32,000 bases of DNA from Candidatus Methanoliparum thermophilum. Its GTDB lineage: Archaea > Halobacteriota > Methanoliparia > Methanoliparales > Methanoliparaceae. The notes below the pieces were generated by a model. It searched no databases and was not told the DNA's origin. It saw only the letters and a list, made by a program, of their open reading frames with translations. Positions 12,105-31,787 of the stretch are shown piece by piece. Numbering within the stretch: the stretch's first letter is position 1; every line of letters begins with the position of its first letter. The translations under genes were made by a program, and so were the position numbers. The stretch spans positions 16,073 through 48,072 of the forward strand of contig RXIF01000003.1 in assembly GCA_004212075.1 (NCBI GenBank), in the 5' to 3' direction.

Positions 12105-13614
12105 TCAATGCAGTAACATCGCCTTCATAAGCCATTTTGTCAGACCGTGCCAATCGGCATATATGCTCTTTATCTGCGTGAACTCTTTAATGCCTTCCTC
12201 AGATGCCAATCTTCCCCATCCACTCTGCTTATATCCTCCAAAAGGCATATCAGAAGATGTCATGTGCCACGTATTCACGAATATGTTACCTGCCTTTATT
12301 CTTCTGGCGACTCTTATCGCTCTCTCTTTATCTTTAGTCATTACTCCACCAGCAAGACCGTATATCGTATCGTTCGCAATCTTTATCGCCTCTTCTTCGG
12401 TCGAGAAAGGTATTATCGATATGACAGGACCAAATATCTCTTCTCTTGCAATCTTCATATCGTTCCTAACGTCGCTGAATACCGTCGGGGCAATAAAGAA
12501 TCCGTCTTTCAATTCTTCCTCTTTTAACCTATAACCACCACACAATAAGGTCGCACCTTCTTCTTTACCTGATTCTATGTATCCAAGAACCTTATTCATC
12601 TGTTCTTCCGTAACGAGTGGTCCTATGTTCGTCTTTAAGGAGAGGGCATTACCGACGTTCAAAGACCCATATATCTCTGCAGTCTTCTTTGCAACCTCTT
12701 TGTATATTTTATCCTGTACAAGGACTCTAGTTCCTGCAAAACATTCTTCACCGTTTGCAAGAGATACGCCCATCGCTGCCATTCTTGCCGCCTCTTCAAC
12801 CGGAAAGTCGTCGAAGATTATATTTGGAGACTTTCCTCCAAGCTCCAACGTCACCTTCTTAAGATTACCGATCGCGTTTTTTACGATATCCTTTCCAGTT
12901 GTTGTCTCACCAGTGAATGCTATATGATCTACCTTCTCGCTCTTAGCCATTTCAGCTCCTACTACAGATCCCGGACCTGTAACCACGTTCGAATACACCT
13001 TTCGGCAGACCCGCCCTCTCGAACATTCTTGCGATCTCTATGGCAGATAAAGGAGTCTGGCTTGCTGGTTTGAAGACAACAGTGTTTCCGCTTATCAATG
13101 CCGCCGGCAATTTCAGTGCCATCTGCCAAAATGGAACGTTCCAAGGTGTTATTAGAGCTACAACTCCATCTTGTTCCCTCAAAACTATCTGATCGATCGG
13201 AAATTCGCCATATATTCTATTCGGCTTAGCTAGATCTTCTGCCCTTGTGCAGACGTACTTGAAATTTGGACTCATATCCAAAATCGTTACGATGTGTTGC
13301 AATACAGGAACTCCGTTGCAACAAGCATCCATTTTGGAAAGATCCCAAGTCTTCTTTGCTACCATATCAGATACCTTATAGAGAATCTCACTCCTTTCCT
13401 TAATCGACATGTTTGGCCATGGTCCGTTGTCGAAAGCATCCCTTGCTGCGTCTATCGCTCTTTTTGTATCCTCAACATCACATTTCTGGCACTCTACGAA
13501 CGTTTTTCCGGTAGACGGGTTTATTATGCTATAAGTATCTCCTTTAGAAGCAGTCGTCCATTCCCCATCGATGAATACCTTTTGTTCCTCTAATCTTTCT
13601 TTATATTTTACCAT
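12105..13614 (-). pseudogene. NAD(P)-dependent aldehyde dehydrogenase interrupted by a single-base frameshift
   Basis: Two overlapping ORFs, 13614-12952 and 12998-12105, together make one full-length ALDH. The N-terminal part ends ...AGLPKGVF, then an out-of-frame tail. The C-terminal frame resumes NVVTGPGSVVG. ELGGKSP and the catalytic Cys context (GEECFAGTR) are intact. The shift maps to about 12987-12996 (GTATTCGAAC on the coding strand). Confidence 0.85.
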
Positions 13615-13666: not shown

Positions 13667-13861
13667 TTACAGATTTACCCCCATCAATCCACCCAAAGAG
13701 TTCACAACCCTTCTTGTCAAACTGATCGGGCAGAGTCCAGCCTCCACCAAGGATTTCAGCAGATCTTTAAGCATAGGCGGAAGCAAATCTATCAACATGT
13801 CTCTTATCCTCTCTGCGATCTCTAAAATCTTGTCCAATACTGATATAAGACTTTTTGACAT
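13667..13861 (-). CDS. small amphipathic helical protein of unknown function
   Basis: 64 aa with a GGAGGTG SD 5 nt upstream of the ATG. Sequence SLISVLDKILEIAERIRDMLIDLLPPMLKDLLKSLVEAGL. Confidence 0.55.
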   Translation of the reverse strand: MSKSLISVLDKILEIAERIRDMLIDLLPPMLKDLLKSLVEAGLCPISLTRRVVNSLGGLMGVNL

Positions 13862-13876
13862 CTTATCACCTCCTAT

Positions 13877-14590
13877 TTAAGTGGGAGTGCCGAATAAAGA
13901 ATCAAACATCTTGGTTAGAGCCTCAAGTAAAGGACTGAATCCTTTGTCCTTTGGAAGAACTGACTCTATAAGACCGGATAGTAGATCACCTATCTTCACA
14001 CTCTCAAGCAATCCTTTTATTAATTTTAAGAGATTATTAAATAATAAACCTATCATTTTCGGATTAACCAGAGCAGGAATTCCAATTTTTATAATATCTC
14101 CGATCGTTCTTCCCAATGTTTCATCATCTATTGAAGATAGAAGATCATAAACAAAACCAGATATAATATCAGAAAGCATTTTTGTATCTTTTTCGAGAAG
14201 AGATGAAAGGAAAGTCAATATGCTATTTATACCTTCAACGATTGTGTCTATATCTATTTCCCTTATTATACTTCCTATATCTATACTTGAAAGTATCGTA
14301 GTAGGAAGACTTCTTTGTAGAGTTTTACCTAATTCATTGAGTACCTCACCGATAGTATTTACAAGCGGGATAATCGCTCCTCCTATATCCGCAAGAACCT
14401 CTATATCTCCCCATATAAGTGTTCTAATCAATTTTGATGCGGATTTTGGATCTATCTCACTTAAAATCTCTCTTAATATCTGTTTTACGAAAGGCGTAGC
14501 TATTATATCTGCTAAAATTCTGTCTACCAAATCGATAATCCCTTTCTCTCCTTTTTTTATTTCTATCTCTTTTTCATCCATTTTTATCAC
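13877..14590 (-). CDS. Ile/Leu/Asp/Ser-rich low-complexity helical protein of unknown function
   Basis: 237 aa. A GTG at 14590 abuts the ACAD stop, and the ATG at 14581 is an alternative start. No motif recognised. Composition resembles the neighbouring small proteins. Confidence 0.6.
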   Translation of the reverse strand: MIKMDEKEIEIKKGEKGIIDLVDRILADIIATPFVKQILREILSEIDPKSASKLIRTLIWGDIEVLADIGGAIIPLVNTIGEVLNELGKTLQRSLPTTILSSIDIGSIIREIDIDTIVEGINSILTFLSSLLEKDTKMLSDIISGFVYDLLSSIDDETLGRTIGDIIKIGIPALVNPKMIGLLFNNLLKLIKGLLESVKIGDLLSGLIESVLPKDKGFSPLLEALTKMFDSLFGTPT

Positions 14591-17139: not shown

Positions 17140-17346
17140 TTACGCTGATGTGAATCTAGCAATTATATCGAAAAATGTTTTTACTATTGTCTCAAGAAAA
17201 GTGCCTTTAAACAAAGATTCCATAGAAGATCTGAAAGTACTTATTAACGCGTTAATTATCGGTTTTATCATGGACCAAACCGCTTTAAGCAGATTTATCA
17301 CTGTTTGTATGATGTTTCCTCCGGAAAAACCTTCTTCTTCACTCAT
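17140..17346 (-). CDS. small amphipathic helical protein of unknown function
   Basis: 68 aa from ATG 17346 (MSEEEGFSGGNIIQTVINLLKAVW...), preceded by GGAGGAGGAG. The ORF-track TTG start at 17364 would translate that SD. First gene of the ACAD operon. Confidence 0.55.
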   Translation of the reverse strand: MSEEEGFSGGNIIQTVINLLKAVWSMIKPIINALISTFRSSMESLFKGTFLETIVKTFFDIIARFTSA

Positions 17347-26973: not shown

Positions 26974-28176
26974 ATGAAGAAAAAGATACTGTTTATCGTT
27001 TTAGACGGTGCTGCCGATCGGCCTGTTTTAATCGATGGAGAAAAAAAGACGCCGTTTAGCGACGCTAATCTTAGGAATATAAACCAGATAGCAAGAGATG
27101 GCATAAACGGTATTATGGATGTAATATCTCCTGGAATACCTCCAGGATCAGATGTTGGGCATTTATCCCTTCTTGGATACGATCCTTATCGGATTTATAC
27201 CGGTCGTGGACCATTAGAGGCTATAGGTGCCGGAATAAGCGTTAAAAAAGGAGATTTAGCGTTTAGATGCAATTTTGCTACGTATAAAGATGGTATAATC
27301 TTAGATAGGCGGGCAGGAAGGATCAACGATACCGACGGGTTGGCAGAAGCTATAGAACAGAATGTAAAACTAAAGGTTGATTTTTTGTTTAAAAGATCGG
27401 CGGGTCATAGGGCTGCATTGGTTCTTAGAGGTGATGGATTGAGTTATAAAATTACAGACGTCGATCCTGGGAGTGATAATCTACCGTTAAAAAAGGCTGA
27501 ACCTTTGGATGAGACGGCAGAAAAAACAGCTGAGATTTTGAACGATTTTGTCGAGCAGAGCATCAAGATTTTATCCAACCATCCGATAAACGAGGAGAGA
27601 AAGAAGAGAGGACTGCCAATAGCAAACGTGATTCTTCCGCGTGGTGCTGGTATTGTGCCTGTTGTTGAAAAATTCGAAGAAAAATATGGATTAAAAGGTG
27701 CTGCAGTTGCCGCAACAGGATTGGTCATAGGCATATCGAGATTATGTGGGCTTGATTTTACTTATACGGAGGGTGCAACAGGAAGTATCGATACCAACAT
27801 AGATAACAAGGTGAAGAACGCACTTGAGTTACTGGACACCCATGATTTTGTACTGATGAATATAAAAGGTACCGATGAGGCAGGACACGATAGAGATTTT
27901 TTAAAAAAGAAAAGATTTTTAGAGAGGATAGACGCCGCATTCGAAAGGCTGGTTGGATTGAAGGACACGATTATCGTTATTACTTCGGATCATGCTACTC
28001 CTGTATCGGTAGGAGATCATACAGGCGATCCTGTGCCGATCTGTATATCTGGTGAAGGCGTGCGGGCTGATAAGGTAAAGAGGTTTAACGAGTTTGAATG
28101 TGCAAATGGTGGATTGGGCAGGATTAGAGGAAAAGATCTGATGCCCATCTTATTAAGGTATCAAGTTATCGATTAG
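26974..28176 (+). CDS. apgM: 2,3-bisphosphoglycerate-independent phosphoglycerate mutase, archaeal type
   Basis: 400 aa. ILFIVLDGAADRP, KGTDEAGHD and ITSDHATP. Confidence 0.9.
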   Translation: MKKKILFIVLDGAADRPVLIDGEKKTPFSDANLRNINQIARDGINGIMDVISPGIPPGSDVGHLSLLGYDPYRIYTGRGPLEAIGAGISVKKGDLAFRCNFATYKDGIILDRRAGRINDTDGLAEAIEQNVKLKVDFLFKRSAGHRAALVLRGDGLSYKITDVDPGSDNLPLKKAEPLDETAEKTAEILNDFVEQSIKILSNHPINEERKKRGLPIANVILPRGAGIVPVVEKFEEKYGLKGAAVAATGLVIGISRLCGLDFTYTEGATGSIDTNIDNKVKNALELLDTHDFVLMNIKGTDEAGHDRDFLKKKRFLERIDAAFERLVGLKDTIIVITSDHATPVSVGDHTGDPVPICISGEGVRADKVKRFNEFECANGGLGRIRGKDLMPILLRYQVID

Positions 28177-28542
28177 CTTCCAAGCCGCATCTAAAAACGC
28201 CTTTGTAGATCCATCAACGTACGCCGCGTTGACTTCAACAGGACCGAGGATAATCAAAACTATCTCTGTTATGTTGTGGGAAAGACTCTTCCAAAAAGAA
28301 CAAAAATTAGCAGTAAAGAAGCCGGCTAAAAATTCAGTAACTAAAGCGCCTATGGGGATAGTTATAACTTCTCCTAGTCCCACCGTCACCGGGATCGTCG
28401 GGAGCCCTAGTATGGCTCCTATGCCTCCTCCTGGTAACCATCCAAGCAAAAGAGCAAGAAGTTCAGTAACTAAACCGCCTATAATGCCTGGGAAACCCAA
28501 GAAGCAAGAACTACAGCCTATGATACATTTGAGAATGTCCAT
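28153..28542 (-). CDS. Gly-rich hydrophobic membrane protein, last gene of the small-peptide array
   Basis: 129 aa. N-terminus MDILKCIIGCSSCFLG resembles those of the upstream peptides. Glycine-zipper-like GGIGAILGLPTIPVTVGLG. The ATG lies 6 nt after the upstream stop. The 3' end overlaps the apgM 3' end convergently by 24 nt. Confidence 0.6.
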   Translation of the reverse strand: MDILKCIIGCSSCFLGFPGIIGGLVTELLALLLGWLPGGGIGAILGLPTIPVTVGLGEVITIPIGALVTEFLAGFFTANFCSFWKSLSHNITEIVLIILGPVEVNAAYVDGSTKAFLDAAWKLIDNLIP

Positions 28543-28548
28543 TTTTTA

Positions 28549-28710
28549 TCAATGAAACACATAAAATAAATCTAATATCTTCCCAATCGGACCACAGATA
28601 CATCCGATGCATGTCAGCACTGCAGAGCCACAGAACATTGTAATATTAGGACAGATTACTAAGATATCCTCTTCTATTACATGTACGATACAGCCTGCCA
28701 TTATGTTCAT
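28549..28710 (-). CDS. small Cys-rich hydrophobic peptide F, not in the ORF track
   Basis: My translation: MNIMAGCIVHVIEEDILVICPNITMFCGSAVLTCIGCICGPIGKILDLFYVFH, 53 aa with 6 Cys. AAGAGGT precedes it. The second ATG at 28701 (MAGC...) has the better SD spacing, about 10 nt. Confidence 0.55.
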   Translation of the reverse strand: MNIMAGCIVHVIEEDILVICPNITMFCGSAVLTCIGCICGPIGKILDLFYVFH

Positions 28711-28723
28711 TACCTCTTAATCC

Positions 28724-28846
28724 TTACCAACCCATCAGCTTCCAGATCTCCTCTGCATAAGAATGAAAGAACTCGCCTAATCCTCCGTCTACAAAAGATA
28801 CAGGAACGCCAATGAACGTCTCTACACAATCAAATGTGATATCCAT
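28724..28846 (-). CDS. small peptide E, not in the ORF track
   Basis: My translation: MDITFDCVETFIGVPVSFVDGGLGEFFHSYAEEIWKLMGW, 40 aa. GGAGG lies 7 nt upstream of the ATG, and that SD overlaps the stop of peptide D. Confidence 0.55.
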   Translation of the reverse strand: MDITFDCVETFIGVPVSFVDGGLGEFFHSYAEEIWKLMGW

Positions 28847-28849
28847 TTA

Positions 28850-28942
28850 TTAACCTCCTATATAAGGTAGTATCTGTTCTAAAATAGCACCCATTACTCC
28901 TTCTCCTCCTAATATTCCGCAAAAACTCATCTCTACAGACAT
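28850..28942 (-). CDS. small peptide D, not in the ORF track
   Basis: My translation: MSVEMSFCGILGGEGVMGAILEQILPYIGG, 30 aa. GGGAGG lies 6 nt upstream of the ATG. Confidence 0.5.
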   Translation of the reverse strand: MSVEMSFCGILGGEGVMGAILEQILPYIGG

Positions 28943-28954
28943 TTTTATCCTCCC

Positions 28955-29134
28955 TTACATTCCGCAACATAACTGGAAGCATTTTCCACAACATCCAAAG
29001 CAGATTCCACCGAGGGTTTCCAACATCCATCCCCATGCCATCCAACACATCGGCATACAAAAATTGGTAACCATCGGCATACAAATAAACGCATCTTCAT
29101 TTTTTATAAATTTTTTTATCTTTTTGAAACTCAT
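28955..29134 (-). CDS. small Cys/Met/Trp-rich peptide C, not in the ORF track
   Basis: My translation: MSFKKIKKFIKNEDAFICMPMVTNFCMPMCWMAWGWMLETLGGICFGCCGKCFQLCCGM, 59 aa with 9 Cys and 8 Met. GGAGG lies 5 nt upstream of the ATG. An internal 14-nt direct repeat encodes the (F)CMPM duplication. Confidence 0.6.
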   Translation of the reverse strand: MSFKKIKKFIKNEDAFICMPMVTNFCMPMCWMAWGWMLETLGGICFGCCGKCFQLCCGM

Positions 29135-29173
29135 TTTAACCTCCTTATTTGTTTCTTACCTTATTTGTTTTCA

Positions 29174-29332
29174 TCACTTCCCAGTGTATAACGTTGAACA
29201 AATTGCATCTATAATCGGTTGGTACATTGGAGCGCCGAATGTACTACAGAAAACTGTTTCACACGCATCTGTCATTATAGTGATAACCGTGCCAACCGTC
29301 TGTTCCATACATGTCTCAAATACAGATGTCAT
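29174..29332 (-). CDS. small peptide B, a distant paralog of peptide A, not in the ORF track
   Basis: My translation: MTSVFETCMEQTVGTVITIMTDACETVFCSTFGAPMYQPIIDAICSTLYTGK, 52 aa. GGAGG lies 10 nt upstream of the ATG. It shares C[IM]EQxxGT and ET(V)FC...FG with peptide A. Confidence 0.6.
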   Translation of the reverse strand: MTSVFETCMEQTVGTVITIMTDACETVFCSTFGAPMYQPIIDAICSTLYTGK

Positions 29333-29359
29333 ATTCTTTTCACCTCCTTATTTTTGTTA

Positions 29360-29527
29360 CTAAAGTTTTCCAAGCATTGCTAAACACAAATTTTCAAGAT
29401 TTTCGCCAAACAAAGGTAGGCAAAATGTCTCCGCACCATGCGGAAACCACGTACAAAACGCTTCACAACATCCTTGGATGCATGTTCCGCAACATTGCTC
29501 TATACATACATTAATCCATGCTGCCAT
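29360..29527 (-). CDS. small Cys-rich peptide A, first gene of the array, not in the ORF track
   Basis: My translation: MAAWINVCIEQCCGTCIQGCCEAFCTWFPHGAETFCLPLFGENLENLCLAMLGKL, 55 aa with 9 Cys. GGAGG lies 9 nt upstream of the ATG. It is a clear paralog of the 61-aa ORF at 29735-29920. Confidence 0.7.
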   Translation of the reverse strand: MAAWINVCIEQCCGTCIQGCCEAFCTWFPHGAETFCLPLFGENLENLCLAMLGKL

Positions 29528-29584
29528 TTTTTATTACCTCCTTTTTTTTATTTCTATCTTTCATACTATACCATTAATCACTGG

Positions 29585-29624
29585 GTATATAAACTTTTGC
29601 TTTTTATCCGTATATAAACTTTTT
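29585..29624 (-). promoter_or_regulatory. duplicated TATA-box-like element upstream of peptide A
   Basis: gtatataaactttt occurs twice, at 29585-29598 and 29610-29623 (period 25). On the minus strand each reads aaaagtttatatac, an archaeal BRE/TATA-like sequence. They lie about 60-95 nt upstream of the peptide A ATG. Confidence 0.45.
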
Positions 29625-29730
29625 GTATATATTAACAATTCATAATATATATGAAAAATTCATAACATCTTGCTATGTGATAACGTCTCGCCGCTTAACA
29701 GGGATAAAGATAGCAATGTAAAGACCAATT

Positions 29731-29787
29731 AATATTACTTACAAGTAATTTTTAAAGAGCAACGAATATTACTTACAAGTAATTTTT
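29731..29787. repeat. two perfect 23-nt direct repeats, each containing a 7-bp-arm palindrome
   Basis: aatattacttacaagtaattttt occurs at 29731-29753 and 29765-29787 with an 11-nt spacer. The core ATTACTT-ac-AAGTAAT is an inverted repeat followed by T5 on the plus strand. It sits at the left boundary of the A/A-prime duplication. Confidence 0.8.
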
Positions 29788-29920
29788 CAAGATTTTCGCC
29801 AACCAAAGGTGTGCAAAATGTCTCCGCACAATGCGGACCCCACGCACATATCGCTTTAGTACATCCTTGGAAAAATGTTCCGCAAATCTGCTCTATGCAT
29901 ATATTAAGATATGCTGCCAT
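29735..29920 (-). CDS. small Cys-rich peptide A-prime, a solo paralog of peptide A
   Basis: 61 aa in the ORF track: MAAYLNICIEQICGTFFQGCTKAICAWGPHCAETFCTPLVGENLEKL... It aligns colinearly with peptide A over about 47 residues. The C-terminal 14 residues are read from a palindromic repeat. Only a weak SD (AGGA). Confidence 0.6.
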   Translation of the reverse strand: MAAYLNICIEQICGTFFQGCTKAICAWGPHCAETFCTPLVGENLEKLLVSNIRCSLKITCK

Positions 29921-30300
29921 CTTTCTATCCTTTCTTTTTTAATTTTTATCTTTCATACTATTTATAAATCTTTCCAATTTTTTCTTCGTGCTAATATAAA
30001 CAGGTTTATCGAAATCTATTGACAAAAAATCTCCTTTTTCTCTGTCCTCATTTGCCGTTTTCTTTTGCTGATTTTCGTTATATTTCTCATCTTATTGTAA
30101 AATATGGTTTTTATCGTCATCAGGGAGTTTAGATAATATATTTGTCAAATTCCTATTATAATTTGTTTCAAAATTCCATAAGCTGTTTTACTCTTTTTCC
30201 TTATCGTTTAAGGACATTTTTTATAATTGTATTTTATTTTCTGTATTATAAATTTTCTCAATTTTGCTAACCGATGGTTATACACGATCCTTTTATGCGT

Positions 30301-30436
30301 GTCCAAAGTTGTCCCAATTGCTGGGACACTGAATAAGAAGAGGAGGAGGGTCTACTTGTCCCAGCAATACGATTTATGGGTCAACAATTAGCCCAAGAAT
30401 TGGGTCAAGTGGGCTAACGTTGGGTCAAGTATGGAC
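30301..30436. promoter_or_regulatory. GC-rich island with TGGGWC hexamer array and competing inverted repeats (regulatory array or ncRNA candidate)
   Basis: GTCCCA(30311-16)-ATTGC-TGGGAC(30322-27). ATTGCTGGGAC (30317-27) is the exact reverse complement of GTCCCAGCAAT (30358-68). TGGGTCAA occurs at 30377, 30401 and 30421, and the last two are 11-mers (TTGGGTCAAGT) 20 bp apart. A TATA-like tttatatata at about 30456-65 follows. Confidence 0.5.
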
Positions 30437-30542
30437 CACCTATTAAAAAGAGAAGATTTATATATAGTATTACAAATTTTGTTATTAGTAACACAAAATC
30501 AGAAAAATTAATAAAAAAGTAACAATATTGGAAGGGGGCAAG

Positions 30543-31787
30543 ATGGATAAAAAAAGAGGGTTGTTTACATTTATTATCGTATCGGTTATGGTATCTTCTT
30601 TTTTGTTGCCAACGGTATCCTATGCAAACGCTGAGATAAAAGTGGTCGACTCAACGGGCAATATTAAAACTATCACTAAACCTGTAAATCGGATCGTAGT
30701 GTTAAACCCGGATGCTGCCCAAGCTGTGAAGGTTTTAGGTAGAGAAGATAGAATCGTTGGTATAGATGCTAGTATTGAGATGCAACCTACATTATTTCCC
30801 AATATATCAAAACTACCCTCAATAGGATTAGCAGCCCCTGTTATGATAAATATTGAGGCTATAAAGCGACTAAATCCAGATTTGGTTGTTGCTTATTCTC
30901 CTGGTATATACAATCCCGGATACGATAGTTTAGAAGCAAAATTAGAGCCGGAGATACAGGTTATTAGGCTTGATCTATACTCGTTACCAGATTTGAAAGA
31001 TGAGATGCTAACTTTAGGTAAGATATTGGATGCGGAAGAAGAAGCAGAGGAGTACGTCAAATGGTGCGAAGAGTGGATGGAGAAGATCGAGCATAATCTA
31101 AGCTATATCTCTTATGACAAACAACCGAGAGTTTATATGGAGATGGGAACTCTACCGCCTTCGTTTATTAGAGGAATGAGTACATTTCAGATACCTGGTA
31201 GGTTTGTTTTCAATGGAGATAACGAGATGGTTTCCTACTTTGATAAGATTAAAGTAAAAAATATTGCTGATGATCTCTCCTCTTTAAAATTTTATAATAT
31301 AGGCGGAGAACCTATCGAGATAATGAAGGGTTACTCTACGGTTGATTCGAAATGGATAGTAATGAAAGATCCAGATATTATAATTGGTGGAGCACTAGGT
31401 TTCAATATGAGAGTAGGCGGGTATGAAACGGATGATGCCGAAGAAAACGATGTTAAAAAATTTTATCTACCGGAAAGCATAAAAACAATGGGTAATTCGA
31501 TGTTAGATCCAAAAAAAATATCTATGAAGTCTTATTATGATGAAATCATCGGTTTAAACGGATTCAATCATATAACTGCGGTAAAGAATGGTCAAGTTCA
31601 TGTGATACATCACACGATTGCATGCGGTCCGGCGTCTCCTGTTGCGGTAGCGTATTATGCCAAATGGGCATATCCTCATGAAATGAAAGATATAGATCCT
31701 GAAGTTATGCATCAAGAGTATATAGACAGATTTATGAAGATAGATTTTGATGTAAAAGAGCAAGGTGTCTTTGTTTATCCAAATTAA
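30543..31787 (+). CDS. ABC transporter substrate-binding protein, Fe3+-siderophore/cobalamin (FecB/BtuF, PF01497-like) type
   Basis: Start at ATG 30543 (MDKKRGLF...) after GGAAGGGGG. Signal-like hydrophobic N-terminus. RIVVLNPDAAQAVKVLG....IVGI and NPDLVVAY are typical of periplasmic binding protein type 2. Followed by a FecCD-like permease. Confidence 0.75.
   Translation: MDKKRGLFTFIIVSVMVSSFLLPTVSYANAEIKVVDSTGNIKTITKPVNRIVVLNPDAAQAVKVLGREDRIVGIDASIEMQPTLFPNISKLPSIGLAAPVMINIEAIKRLNPDLVVAYSPGIYNPGYDSLEAKLEPEIQVIRLDLYSLPDLKDEMLTLGKILDAEEEAEEYVKWCEEWMEKIEHNLSYISYDKQPRVYMEMGTLPPSFIRGMSTFQIPGRFVFNGDNEMVSYFDKIKVKNIADDLSSLKFYNIGGEPIEIMKGYSTVDSKWIVMKDPDIIIGGALGFNMRVGGYETDDAEENDVKKFYLPESIKTMGNSMLDPKKISMKSYYDEIIGLNGFNHITAVKNGQVHVIHHTIACGPASPVAVAYYAKWAYPHEMKDIDPEVMHQEYIDRFMKIDFDVKEQGVFVYPN

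What the first reader, a model, noticed from the sequence alone, without database searches (positions are those of the whole stretch)
28153..29920. Hidden array of SD-led small ORFs encoding a diverged family of Cys-rich hydrophobic peptides
The ORF track shows only antisense or out-of-frame ORFs between apgM and the ABC transporter. Translating the minus strand by hand gives a head-to-tail series of ORFs of 30-61 aa: A-prime, A, B, C, D, E and F, followed by a 129-aa Gly-rich membrane protein.

Evidence for real translation:
- A, B, C, D and E each have a perfect GGAGG 5-10 nt upstream of the ATG. This is the same SD used by rubrerythrin, the SDR gene and the phosphodiesterase in this window.
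- Stops and SDs of successive genes overlap or lie 3-40 nt apart, as expected for translational coupling.

The peptides look like one diverged family:
- A, A-prime and B share C[IM]EQxxGT and ETFC/ETVFC...FG.
- Seven of the eight products have a Cys at residue 6-8 followed by a hydrophobic residue: MAAWINVC, MAAYLNIC, MTSVFETC, MSVEMSFC, MDITFDC, MNIMAGC and MDILKC. Peptide C is the exception: its first Cys is at residue 18, after a Lys-rich N-terminal extension (MSFKKIKKFIKNEDAFIC).
- A and C carry 9 Cys each in under 60 residues.

I see no signal peptide or lipobox. No radical-SAM, lanthipeptide or peptidase-ABC maturase is present in the window. I recognise no described family. Candidate roles, all speculative, are metal-binding or metallothionein-like peptides, archaeocin-like (halocin C8-style Cys-rich) peptides with a membrane immunity partner, or small membrane-complex subunits.
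Basis: partly seen in the sequence, partly recalled or inferred. Interest (0 to 1): 0.85.

Follow-up and report, generated by a model that had tools for sequence, protein, structure and literature searches.

The report
Hypervariable small-protein operon shared with virus
The eight back-to-back mini-genes are real: they form a fast-evolving operon of tiny, cysteine-rich, greasy helical proteins that turned up only in the oil-degrading methanogen Candidatus Methanoliparum and close relatives, and part of it also occurs in a tailed archaeal virus from the same cultures, so it probably belongs to a virus-host conflict rather than to metal handling or antibiotic production.

Summary
**Observation: confirmed.**
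- The eight minus-strand ORFs exist: A', A, B, C, D, E, F, G.
- A–E each have GGAGG 5–10 nt before the ATG.
- All eight frames are kept in six diverged alleles.

**What it is.**
- The window is Ca. Methanoliparum thermophilum.
- The array lies between an ABC-importer/CobN cluster and apgM.
- It is a replacement-type hypervariable island. Flanks are 96–99% identical between strains. The array is 82–87% identical in one strain and almost wholly exchanged in another.
- dN/dS is 0.29 for E and about 2 for A and B.
- No Cys is invariant in A/B. Invariant residues are E10, Q11, G14, A23, P38, K54.
- There are no hits in Pfam, NCBIfam, PHROGs, PADLOC, Rfam or PDB.

**Unexpected result.**
- Y–C–E–F–G homologues, in the same order, lie inside a head-tailed archaeal virus, between MuF/CapC/CapB-like genes and the prohead protease.
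- The virus comes from the same sample series.

**Interpretation.**
- Most likely this is a membrane- or envelope-associated small-protein assembly under virus-driven diversification. This mechanism is inferred, not shown.
- The metal-binding and archaeocin readings are disfavoured.
- It is a new family set of unknown biochemical function.

The parts
29735..29920 (-). A' (61 aa). It is a paralogue of A with its own TATA-like upstream element and a weaker SD (AAGGA). Its odd C-terminal tail comes from a 34-nt tandem duplication.
   Evidence: ORF. It is 58% identical to A. The A/A' duplication covers 160 nt at 81% identity (D1). Its orthologue in L003 is 90% identical with dN/dS 0.45.
29719..29786 (.). 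Tandem duplication of 34 nt (2 copies, 91% identical) that covers the 3' end of A'.
   Evidence: Repeat family D4.
29585..29632 (-). Two copies of an archaeal BRE/TATA-like box (AAAAGTTTATATAC), about 70 and 95 nt upstream of the ATG of A. This is the likely promoter of the A-G operon. That it acts as a promoter is inferred.
   Evidence: Repeat D8; sequence. The roughly 50-nt block is identical in L003 (L003 1431-1480), although the neighbouring coding DNA has diverged.
29360..29527 (-). A (55 aa, 9 Cys, net charge -4). It is predicted to be mostly one long helix.
   Evidence: GGAGG at 29541-29537, 9 nt before the ATG. AF2 gives a helix over residues 2-42 with pLDDT 73.5. dN/dS 2.03 against L003. 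Family members P0021-P0024 came from the exhaustive search.
29174..29332 (-). B (52 aa), a diverged member of the A family.
   Evidence: GGAGG at 29347-29343, 10 nt before the ATG. A vs B has E=9e-5. dN/dS 1.90. Orthologues occur in L003, L008, L010, L011 and L012.
28955..29134 (-). C (59 aa, 9 Cys). It has a Lys-rich amphipathic N-terminus ending in the KNEDA motif, then a Met/Trp/Cys-rich hydrophobic segment and a G..FG..GK..LC tail. It is the only array peptide that NCBI annotated in full (RZN65240.1).
   Evidence: GGAGG at 29144-29140, 5 nt before the ATG. Name. dN/dS 0.61. The viral homologue L014 9733-9897 matches at E=2e-10; that viral protein matches L011 C at E=4e-14.
28850..28942 (-). 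D (30 aa, Gly-rich). Its last codons (IGG) overlap the SD of E.
   Evidence: GGAGG at 28953-28949, 6 nt before the ATG. Orthologues of 32-39 aa occur in L003, L008, L011 and L017.
28724..28846 (-). E (40 aa, net charge -6). It is the most conserved member and is predicted to be a helical hairpin. Its sequence also recurs as a C-terminal module in G and in many paralogues.
   Evidence: GGAGG at 28858-28854, 7 nt before the ATG. dN/dS 0.29. 31 clusters found. AF2 gives helices 2-21 and 23-37 with pLDDT 78. E profile vs G profile gives P=1.8e-4. Viral homologue P0040.
28549..28710 (-). F (53 aa, or more likely 50 aa starting at 28701). It has one strongly hydrophobic, TM-like helix, CGSAVLTCIGCICGPIGK.
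   Evidence: 19-residue hydropathy maximum 1.88. Start discussion. The viral 42-aa homologue matches L011 F at E=3e-9.
28153..28542 (-). G (129 aa). It is a Gly-rich hydrophobic protein with a conserved N-terminus (MDIxxC), a variable-length middle that contains an in-frame 129-nt-spaced internal duplication (28325-28353 and 28454-28482), and a conserved E-like C-terminal helix. Its last 24 nt overlap the 3' end of apgM.
   Evidence: (D5). Orthologues are 68 aa (L003), 174 aa (L011), 184 aa (L017) and 125 aa (virus). Window G vs L017 G has E=4e-9. Virus G vs L011 G has E=2e-11.

Best explanation
**What it is (shown).**
- The locus is a polycistronic operon of leaderless small helical proteins. 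They are hydrophobic, acidic, Cys/Gly-rich and very poor in Lys and Arg.
- It occupies a replacement-type hypervariable island in Ca. Methanoliparum chromosomes.
- Its core, Y-C-E-F-G, is shared in the same order with a head-tailed archaeal virus found in the same cultures.

**How it most likely works (inferred).**
- The products probably assemble at the cytoplasmic membrane or cell envelope.
- G would be the hydrophobic core. C and F would be single-pass or tail-anchored partners.
- E, A, B and D would be small acidic helical hairpins that dock through the shared E-type helix.
- In most alleles a signal-anchored coiled-coil protein would reach outward from the membrane.
- This assembly would be a point of contact with the virus. 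It could block or mediate genome entry or exit, as a superinfection-exclusion or receptor-like function.
- That role would explain the exchange of alleles between strains, the excess amino-acid change in A and B, and the virus carrying its own copy.
For: **Real genes.**
- Frames, order, SDs and in-frame indels are conserved across six host alleles.
- ORF retention is unlikely under random substitution: 0.078, 0.158, 0.28 and 0.29 for A, B, F and C.
- E is under purifying selection, dN/dS 0.29.

**Hypervariable island.**

| Comparison with the window | Flanks | Array |
|---|---|---|
| L003 | 96.3% and 98.6% identical | 82-87% identical |
| L017 | 98.95% over 8 kb | almost no nucleotide similarity |

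- L003 figures. L017 figures.
- apgM has dS 0.040. The array genes have dS 0.11-0.86.
- dN exceeds dS in A plus B (Fisher p=0.029).
- Three alleles co-occur in one sample, 3300006094.

**Virus link.**
- L014, L015, L016, L023 and L024 carry Y, C, E, F and G. They lie between Portal_Mu/Phage_Mu_F/CapC/Mur-ligase genes and an S78-like prohead protease.
- IMG/VR lists the same virus as UViGs.
- Its terminase is closest to that of ANMV-1.
- Pairwise E-values run from 1e-11 to 3e-9 for Y, F and G; C reaches 4e-14. The E profile hit has E=2.4e-14.
- Cassette GC matches its own genome in both cases: 30.1% in a 30% virus, and 39.6% in a 36.5% host. The sharing is therefore old.

**Envelope link.**
- F and G reach TM-like hydropathy.
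- Four alleles insert a signal-anchored protein with a Pro-rich spacer and a coiled coil between E and F. L011 adds a signal-peptide protein.
Against: - There is no experimental or expression evidence of any kind.
- No hit in PADLOC or PHROGs, and no similarity to any known exclusion protein.
- The proteins have very few Lys or Arg and carry Glu or Asp inside their hydrophobic stretches. That is atypical for ordinary membrane proteins. A', A, C, D, E and the window copy of B fall below the usual TM hydropathy threshold.
- In the virus the cassette sits where head-core or scaffold proteins are usually encoded. This fits a virion-assembly role as well as a membrane role.
- The three to five viral contigs are about 99% identical, so no diversification is seen on the viral side.
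- That the virus infects Methanoliparum rests only on co-occurrence and on these shared families.
Confidence: 0.4

Rival explanations
1. Virion-assembly reading. In the virus, Y-C-E-F-G would be small acidic helical prohead-core or scaffold-like proteins. The chromosomal cassette would be a captured copy that interferes with, or assists, capsid assembly, as satellite-encoded capsid-redirecting proteins do.
For: - In the virus the cassette lies between portal/MuF and the prohead protease. From my own knowledge, T4 encodes the small acidic core proteins gp67 and gp68 at the equivalent position.
- E and A are predicted to be short acidic helical hairpins or helices (charges).
- Scarce Lys and Arg fits soluble acidic proteins better than membrane proteins.
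Against: - Extreme hydrophobicity and Cys content are not features of known scaffold or core proteins.
- Host alleles include signal-anchored and signal-peptide proteins.
- No other virion gene accompanies the host cassette.
- CapC (a membrane protein) and a ligase separate the cassette from MuF.
- The genes after the protease are not a capsid gene.
Confidence: 0.15
2. Leaderless multi-peptide antagonistic peptides (archaeocin-like), with G as a membrane immunity protein. Strain-specific alleles would mediate competition between Methanoliparum strains.
For: - The array consists of tandem SD-led 30-60 aa helical hydrophobic peptides without leaders.
- Alleles are replaced between strains and several alleles coexist.
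- dN exceeds dS in A and B.
Against: - The peptides are acidic (-3 to -6) rather than cationic.
- No exporter, peptidase or immunity family is present in any of three genomic contexts.
- The neighbouring ABC system is an importer type (Peripla_BP_2/FecCD).
- A and B are dispensable, being disrupted in L017.
- Homologues lie inside a virus head module.
Confidence: 0.12
3. Housekeeping small subunits or hydrophobic-interface proteins. Examples would be proteins that handle alkane or oil droplets, or accessory subunits of a membrane complex. The fast evolution would then reflect only weak constraint.
For: - The composition is hydrophobic and Cys-rich.
- Within what these searches reached, the families are restricted to an alkane-degrading lineage.
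- The chromosomal position is stable in several lineages.
Against: - Whole-allele replacement next to 99%-identical flanks, together with loss of A and B in L017, is not expected for housekeeping subunits.
- Viral homologues exist.
- The site is occupied by a different gene in Ca. Methanolliviera.
Confidence: 0.1
4. Thiol-rich metal-binding or metallochaperone peptides that serve the adjacent PBP-FecCD-ABC importer and the CobN/ChlID-type chelatase cluster.
For: - Cys is 8.8% of residues.
- The array is divergently adjacent to Peripla_BP_2/FecCD/ABC/CobN/VWA-AAA genes in the window, L011 and L017.
- L012 is flanked by an AAA_5 ATPase.
Against: - No Cys column is invariant in the A/B family, whereas E10, Q11, G14, A23, P38 and K54 are.
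- Cys positions shift between orthologues.
- The L013 locus type and the virus have no linked transporter or chelatase.
- Hypervariability is unexpected for a metallochaperone.
Confidence: 0.08
5. Precursors of ribosomally made, post-translationally modified peptides. Their maturases would be encoded elsewhere. In the virus the adjacent CapB-like amide ligase and CapC might modify them.
For: - Cores rich in Cys, Gly, Ser and Thr sit behind conserved N-terminal segments, such as the [KR][DN]E[DE]A motif in C and Y.
- A, B and X end in GK.
- The CapC and Mur-ligase genes lie directly upstream of the cassette in every viral contig that reaches that far upstream.
- The virus encodes a radical SAM protein.
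Against: - No maturase, protease or exporter lies within 10 kb in any host context.
- The most conserved parts are often C-terminal (C, F, E), not leader-like.
- E is conserved over its whole length.
Confidence: 0.07
6. The ORFs are chance reading frames in non-coding or decaying DNA.
For: - For A and B, substitutions are no rarer at codon positions 1 and 2 than at position 3 (17/16/11 and 18/15/11).
- Their dN/dS is about 2.
Against: - Frames, order, starts and SDs are kept in six alleles and in a virus.
- E, C and A' are under purifying selection.
- Indels are in-frame, and ORF retention is unlikely by chance.
- Family members were recovered by exhaustive HMMER at E values of 1e-8 to 1e-24.
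Confidence: 0.02

Closest known systems
Prophage 'moron' and superinfection-exclusion small membrane proteins (for example T4 Imm/Sp, HK97 gp15, P22 SieA). Comparison from my own knowledge.
   Same: - They are small hydrophobic virus-encoded proteins.
- They are inserted within morphogenetic modules.
- They act at the membrane in virus-virus or virus-host conflict.
- They evolve fast and vary from strain to strain.
   Different: - There is no sequence or profile similarity (PHROGs and PADLOC negative).
- Here the unit is a cassette of 5-15 genes, not one protein.
- The host copy lies in a fixed chromosomal island without any prophage.
- The proteins are acidic and Cys-rich.
- No function has been tested.
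Replacement flexible genomic islands of prokaryotic populations, such as O-antigen, S-layer-glycosylation or pilin islands that are thought to be maintained by phage predation. Comparison from my own knowledge.
   Same: - The chromosomal site is the same across strains and the flanks are 96-99% identical.
- The contents are exchanged for divergent or non-homologous alleles.
- Several alleles coexist in one sample.
   Different: - Those islands usually encode glycosyltransferases or large surface proteins.
- This one encodes only tiny leaderless proteins.
- Part of this island is shared with a virus.
Leaderless multi-peptide bacteriocins (aureocin A70, enterocin L50A/B, garvicin KS). Comparison from my own knowledge.
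   Same: - They are tandem, separately translated ORFs of 30-55 aa.
- They lack a leader, are helical and hydrophobic, and occur as paralogous sets.
   Different: - Those peptides are cationic, rich in Lys and Trp, and poor in Cys.
- They are linked to ABC exporters or immunity genes, and they are bacterial.
- The peptides here are acidic, Cys-rich and archaeal, have no linked exporter, and have viral homologues.
Halocin C8 (a Cys-rich archaeocin processed from ProC8, with the HalI immunity part). Comparison from my own knowledge.
   Same: - It is archaeal.
- It is a small, hydrophobic, Cys-rich peptide associated with an immunity function.
   Different: - HalC8 is cut from a Tat-signal precursor of about 283 aa that also supplies the immunity protein.
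- No signal peptide, precursor architecture or similarity is present here.
T4 prohead core proteins gp67/gp68 and internal peptides. Comparison from my own knowledge.
   Same: - They are small acidic proteins.
- They are encoded between the portal gene and the prohead protease gene, which is where the cassette sits in the virus.
   Different: - They are not hydrophobic or Cys-rich.
- They have no chromosomal host homologues.
- No similarity was detected.

Membership tests
Leaderless or class II bacteriocins and archaeocins | The mature peptide is cationic and amphipathic. | tested here: not met
   Net charges are -3 to -6 for A, B, D, E, F and G. Only C (+3) and A' (+1) are positive.
Leaderless or class II bacteriocins and archaeocins | A dedicated exporter and/or immunity gene is linked to the peptide genes. 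| tested here: not met
   No exporter or C39 peptidase was found in the window or within 10 kb in L001, L011, L013 or L017. The adjacent ABC system is a PBP-dependent importer type.
Leaderless or class II bacteriocins and archaeocins | The secreted peptide has antagonistic activity. | not testable with these tools
   This needs peptide synthesis or expression followed by inhibition assays.
Halocin C8-type archaeocin | A Tat-signal precursor is processed into an immunity part and a Cys-rich peptide. | tested here: not met
   The ORFs are 30-129 aa, each with its own start and SD. There is no twin-arginine motif and no Pfam or NCBIfam hit.
Metallothionein / Csp-type thiolate metal storage | Cys positions are conserved (CxC, CxxC or helix-face ladders) across homologues. 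| tested here: not met
   No Cys column is invariant among 10 A/B members, while six non-Cys columns are. Cys positions move between the window and L003 orthologues.
Metallothionein / Csp-type thiolate metal storage | Metal is bound stoichiometrically. | not testable with these tools
   This needs purified protein and metal analysis.
RiPP precursor peptides (lanthipeptide, sactipeptide/SCIFF, TOMM) | A maturase (LanM/LanBC, radical SAM with SPASM domain, or YcaO) is co-localised. | tested here: not met
   None was found in the window or in the flanks of four host contexts. In the virus a CapB-like ligase and CapC are adjacent, and a small radical SAM gene lies about 9 kb away. Their relevance is unknown.
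RiPP precursor peptides (lanthipeptide, sactipeptide/SCIFF, TOMM) | The leader is conserved and the core is variable. | tested here: inconclusive
   N-termini are better conserved than C-termini in A, B, D, C and Y. The reverse holds, or conservation is full-length, in F, E and the tail of C.
Phage superinfection-exclusion / moron membrane proteins | The protein is encoded by a virus or prophage. | tested here: met
   Y, C, E, F and G homologues lie inside a terminase/portal/MuF/protease-bearing viral contig that is also listed in IMG/VR.
Phage superinfection-exclusion / moron membrane proteins | The protein is an integral membrane protein. | tested here: inconclusive
   F and G reach TM-like hydropathy (1.88 and 1.95). 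The other window peptides, C included (1.40), fall below the 1.6 threshold. Lys and Arg are scarce and acidic residues lie within hydrophobic stretches.
Phage superinfection-exclusion / moron membrane proteins | The protein blocks infection or DNA entry. | not testable with these tools
   This needs a host-virus culture system.
Replacement flexible genomic island | The same site with near-identical flanks carries divergent or non-homologous contents in co-occurring strains. | tested here: met
   Flanks are 96-99% identical. The array is 82-87% identical in L003 and essentially replaced in L017. L003, L011 and L017 all come from sample 3300006094.
Any curated protein or RNA family (Pfam, NCBIfam, PHROGs, PADLOC, Rfam, PDB) | A profile or structure match is significant. 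| tested here: not met
   Searches gave nothing below E=0.01 for any window peptide.

The most novel reading that the evidence does not exclude
The cassette would be a previously unrecognised kind of virus-host conflict system built entirely from tandem micro-proteins. An alkane-degrading methanogen would keep a hypervariable chromosomal set of them. A tailed archaeal virus would carry its own matched Y-C-E-F-G set inside its head-morphogenesis region. The host set could act as a decoy or exclusion complex against the viral set, or the viral set as a mimic of the host complex. Alleles would turn over by negative frequency-dependent selection.
Probability: 0.3. Interest if true: 0.8.

Novelty: categorically new. 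Interest (0 to 1): 0.66.

Why it matters
- **Annotation gap.** Small proteins are systematically under-annotated. NCBI kept only one and a half of these eight genes, yet comparative data show that all are maintained.
- **Why the locus is unusual.** Several features coincide here: micro-protein families with no known relatives, whole-allele replacement between strains that are otherwise about 99% identical, dN exceeding dS in two members, and an ordered homologous cassette in a tailed archaeal virus.
- **What it offers if the link is functional.**
  - It would give a first handle on how viruses interact with Ca. Methanoliparum. This organism matters for methane formation from crude oil.
  - It would provide a marker locus for tracking strains and virus pressure in oil-reservoir metagenomes.
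  - It would add a micro-protein-only module to the known repertoire of virus-host interfaces.
- **What it tells annotators now.** Cys-richness is not evidence of metal binding when the Cys positions are not conserved.

Tried and rejected
**Family libraries.** Pfam, NCBIfam, PHROGs and PADLOC scans of all eight peptides gave nothing.

**Word-indexed protein search.**
- G and the A/B profile returned only self hits.
- This negative was shown to be unreliable. The L003 orthologues are in the collection but were not retrieved.
- The exhaustive HMMER search was therefore used.

**Collection scans.**
- Genome contigs with apgM returned only Ca. Methanolliviera NM1b at 69% identity. A different gene lies downstream of apgM there and no array is present.
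- Metagenome contigs found nothing with E orthologues or with apgM, not even the window's own contig. That collection evidently lacks these samples, and both scans are spent.
- Viral contigs found no cassette with the A/B profile, the E profile, viral G or the viral CapB-like protein. Only MuF found the same virus.
- tblastn of C and E against 50,697 phage genomes gave no match.

**RNA and structure.**
- Rfam on 28000-30600 gave nothing.
- No tRNA or att-like feature was found near any locus.
- PDB sequence search and Foldseek on the E model gave nothing meaningful.

**Ideas considered and dropped.**
- A double-glycine leader. The GG endings of D come from overlap with the next gene's SD, and no C39 transporter is present.
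- WXG100-like hairpins. Neither the length nor any profile supports this.
- A lipobox or signal peptide on the eight window products. None is present.

**Literature.** Full-text searches on Methanoliparum or Methanoliparia combined with small proteins, virus or provirus found nothing on this locus.

Full report
**1. The observation**

| ORF | Coordinates | Length (aa) |
|---|---|---|
| A' | 29735-29920 | 61 |
| A | 29360-29527 | 55 |
| B | 29174-29332 | 52 |
| C | 28955-29134 | 59 |
| D | 28850-28942 | 30 |
| E | 28724-28846 | 40 |
| F | 28549-28710 | 53 |
| G | 28153-28542 | 129 |

- Successive genes are separated by 27, 39, 12, 3, 13 and 6 nt.
- A perfect GGAGG lies 9, 10, 5, 6 and 7 nt before the ATG of A, B, C, D and E. 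The same motif precedes rubrerythrin, the SDR gene and the metallophosphoesterase.
- The window holds 46 GGAGG on both strands. Nine lie on the minus strand within these 1.8 kb, about seven times the density elsewhere on that strand. Five of the nine are correctly placed for initiation.
- GC skew, which follows the coding strand throughout the window, turns negative across the array.
- The products have 8.8% Cys against 1.3% in 30 reference genes. They have 4% Lys+Arg against 13%.
- F more probably starts at its second ATG (28701), which has AAGAGGT 8 nt upstream. JGI chose that start in the orthologue.
- The array is not invisible to gene callers. JGI called all eight genes on the source contig. 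NCBI kept only C (RZN65240.1) and a 78-aa piece of G (RZN65239.1).

**2. Source and surroundings**

- The window is identical to JGI contig Ga0181301_100006.
- NCBI names the two annotated products as Candidatus Methanoliparum thermophilum.
- On one side of the array lie apgM, S3Ae, an aminoacyl-tRNA synthetase (tRNA-synt_2b) and other housekeeping genes.
- On the other side, divergently transcribed, lie a Peripla_BP_2/FecCD/ABC importer, CobN and a VWA-AAA chelatase subunit.
- The rest of the window encodes beta-oxidation and housekeeping functions. It has no maturase, peptidase or exporter.
- Rfam finds nothing in the region, and there is no tRNA.
- Two copies of AAAAGTTTATATAC lie 70-95 nt upstream of A (D8). 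This block is identical in a diverged strain, which fits a promoter. That it is a promoter is inferred.

**3. Are they genes?**

The decisive evidence is comparative. Cluster look-up revealed variants of A' and E on other contigs, which led to L003. L003 is the orthologous locus of another strain.

*Divergence from the flanks.*
- The flanks are 96.3% (PBP) and 98.6% (apgM) identical to the window. The array is only 82-87% identical.
- Even so, all eight frames, starts and SDs persist, and every indel is a multiple of three.

*Selection.*

| Gene | dN/dS (window vs L003) |
|---|---|
| A' | 0.45 |
| A | 2.03 |
| B | 1.90 |
| C | 0.61 |
| D | 0.53 |
| E | 0.29 |
| F | 0.75 |
| G | 0.59 |
| apgM (flank) | 0.16 |

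- apgM has dS 0.040. The array genes have dS 0.11-0.86.
- For A and B, substitutions are no rarer at codon positions 1 and 2.
- Two results point the other way. Random substitution at the observed density would leave A open in only 7.8% of trials and B in 15.8%. The excess of dN over dS in A plus B is significant (Fisher p=0.029). Diversifying selection on real proteins is the better reading.

*More alleles.*
- The word-indexed protein search returned only self hits. It demonstrably misses orthologues that are in its collection.
- An exhaustive HMMER search with an A/B profile found four more members.
- Their contigs carry the same gene order, A-B-(X)-C-D-E-(coiled coil)-F-G.
- L011 repeats the whole synteny (ABC-FecCD-PBP | array | apgM-S3Ae) in a relative whose flanks are only 77-81% identical.

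Chance ORFs are excluded.

**4. Family structure**

- A', A and B form one family. A' and A are 58% identical. A vs B has E=9e-5.
- Across ten members the invariant residues are E10, Q11, G14, A23, P38 and K54. No Cys column is invariant.
- E is the most conserved member. A profile search found 31 clusters, including longer paralogues in which the E sequence is a C-terminal module behind variable hydrophobic N-terminal parts.
- The same module ends G (hhalign of the E profile against the G profile, P=1.8e-4). E, F and G also share an N-terminal M[DEQ]I..[DN]C[IV] motif.
- G keeps its two ends and varies in the middle:

| G copy | Length (aa) |
|---|---|
| L003 | 68 |
| Virus | 125 |
| Window | 129 |
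| L011 | 174 |
| L017 | 184 |

- The window copy of G carries an in-frame internal duplication (D5).
- C and F share a G..FG..GK..LC tail. C and Y share a [KR][DN]E[DE]A motif. Both are read by eye.
- 'One diverged family' is therefore an overstatement, but the members are not unrelated either.
- AF2 predicts E as a helical hairpin (pLDDT 78) and A as mostly one long helix (pLDDT 73.5).
- No solved structure or fold match is meaningful.

**5. A hypervariable island**

- L017 shares 98.95% identity with the window over 8 kb of the left flank and 92% over apgM. Between them almost nothing aligns.
- Its contents are, in order:
  - a PBP paralogue fragment fused to the 3' half of A';
  - Y, X, C, D and E;
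  - a signal-anchored coiled-coil protein;
  - F, and a 184-aa G.
- L017 has no intact A or B.
- L003, L011 and L017 all come from one sample, 3300006094.
- A second locus type (L012, L013) holds up to 15 such genes. These include a 305-310-aa Cys-rich polytopic protein and an IS240 transposase. This locus sits between an AAA_5 ATPase and HAD/POR genes.
- In Ca. Methanolliviera NM1b the site downstream of apgM holds an unrelated 196-aa gene.

**6. The virus**

The E-like protein P0040 lies on contigs L014, L015 and L016, and the same cassette is on L023 and L024.

| Position relative to the cassette | Genes |
|---|---|
| Further upstream | PCNA, dCTP deaminase, two DNA methylases |
| Upstream | Alba, a large terminase, a Mu-type portal, an intein-containing MuF protein |
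| Immediately upstream | CapC and a CapB-like Mur ligase |
| Cassette | Y (65 aa), C (54), E (40), F (42), G (125) |
| Downstream | An S78-like prohead protease, then a DNA ligase |

- IMG/VR lists the same sequence as UViGs.
- The closest named terminase is that of the ANME-1 virus ANMV-1, at 29% identity.

| Family | Viral copy compared with | E-value |
|---|---|---|
| C | L011 C | 4e-14 |
| C | Window C | 2e-10 |
| G | L011 G | 2e-11 |
| Y | L017 Y | 1e-11 |
| F | L011 F | 3e-9 |
| E | E profile | 2.4e-14 |

- Cassette GC equals that of its resident genome in both cases: 30.1% in the virus and 39.6% in the host. The sharing is therefore not a recent transfer or a chimeric assembly.
- Host alleles and the virus co-occur in two independent data series, JGI 33000138xx and SRR252938xx.

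**7. Interpretation**

*Shown.*
- A conserved operon of leaderless small helical proteins.
- Strain-level allele replacement.
- Mixed purifying and diversifying selection.
- An ordered homologous cassette in a tailed archaeal virus.
- No relation to any curated family.

*Inferred.*
- The products act together at the membrane or envelope.
- They form an interface with the virus, through exclusion, receptor modification, or entry and egress.

*For the membrane reading.*
- F and G have TM-like hydropathy.
- C looks like an N-in signal anchor.
- Four alleles carry a signal-anchored coiled-coil protein, and L011 adds a signal-peptide protein.

*Against it.*
- Lys and Arg are scarce.
- Acidic residues lie inside the hydrophobic stretches.
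- In the virus the cassette sits next to the prohead protease, which fits a virion-core or scaffold role equally well.

*Other readings.*
- Metal binding is disfavoured. Cys positions are not conserved, and the link to the transporter is not general.
- The archaeocin reading is disfavoured by the acidic charge, the lack of an exporter, the dispensability of A and B, and the viral copies.
- A RiPP role cannot be excluded, but no linked maturase supports it.

**8. Novelty and limits**

- Nothing comparable is in Pfam, NCBIfam, PHROGs, PADLOC or the PDB.
- No paper found in the library mentions the locus.
- As far as these searches reach, the families are confined to Methanoliparum-like archaea and one virus.
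- Function is unknown. The mechanism offered is a hypothesis at about 0.4 confidence.
- The host assignment of the virus rests on co-occurrence and shared families only.
- The two metagenome scans and the genome scan could not sample more relatives.

Noticed in passing
window 28153-28176 (and L003 2730-2775): In the window strain a deletion of about 42 nt joins the 3' end of G to the 3' end of apgM. The two genes now overlap by 24 nt. As a result apgM ends in ...LLRYQVID instead of the ancestral ...LLDLAGRSKKFGA, which is kept in L003, L011, L017 and Ca. Methanolliviera.
   Followed up: partly
window 12105-13614 (minus strand): An aldehyde dehydrogenase is split into two overlapping ORFs. ORF 12952-13614 covers Aldedh profile positions 1-186, and ORF 12105-12998 covers positions 187-461. 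This is a frameshift, from either a pseudogene or an assembly error.
   Followed up: no
L003 543-651; window about 30340-30400: The intergenic region between the PBP gene and the array holds a variable tandem repeat of ACTTGACCCA. L003 has about 8 copies and the window has essentially one. The repeat creates a spurious 107-aa ORF in L003. It may be a regulatory site in the divergent promoter region.
   Followed up: partly
window 13667-13861 (-), 17140-17346 (-), 13877-14590 (-): Two further SD-led (perfect GGAGG) small ORFs of 64 and 68 aa, and a 237-aa protein without Pfam hits, sit among the acyl-CoA dehydrogenase genes. All three look like hydrophobic, amphipathic helical proteins. They may be other unannotated small proteins of the beta-oxidation region.
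   Followed up: no
L014 7555-9060 (also L015, L016, L023, L024): The virus encodes a CapC homologue and a CapB-like Mur-ligase-domain protein directly upstream of the small-protein cassette. Together they resemble a poly-gamma-glutamate synthase. I know of no precedent for such a pair in a tailed archaeal virus.
   Followed up: no
L014 5637-7322: The viral MuF-family head protein contains an intein (PT-HINT and Intein_splicing hits).
   Followed up: no
L014 603-644, 7519-7548, 9451-9497: A conserved intergenic motif of 27-42 nt recurs at three places in the virus: before the HTH gene, before CapC, and before Y. It probably marks promoters. If so, Y-C-E-F-G begins its own transcription unit.
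   Followed up: no
L017 8389-9141: A 250-aa paralogue of the periplasmic binding protein is fused in frame to the 3' half of A' (...KTFCTPLVGENLEKLLVSNI...). This is a recombination scar that destroyed the A-type gene in this allele.
   Followed up: partly
L013 1051-1689: An IS240-family transposase is inserted inside the second-type array.
   Followed up: no
L012 1288-1413 and L008 554-646: The 43-aa X peptide (MECIMAC...ACCGK) is intact in L010, L011 and L017. It is frameshifted or truncated in L012 and L008, and it is absent from the window.
   Followed up: no
tool behaviour: The word-indexed protein search failed to return the orthologues P0013, P0014 and P0020, although they are representatives in its collection. 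Its negatives for peptides under 70 aa should therefore not be trusted.
   Followed up: yes
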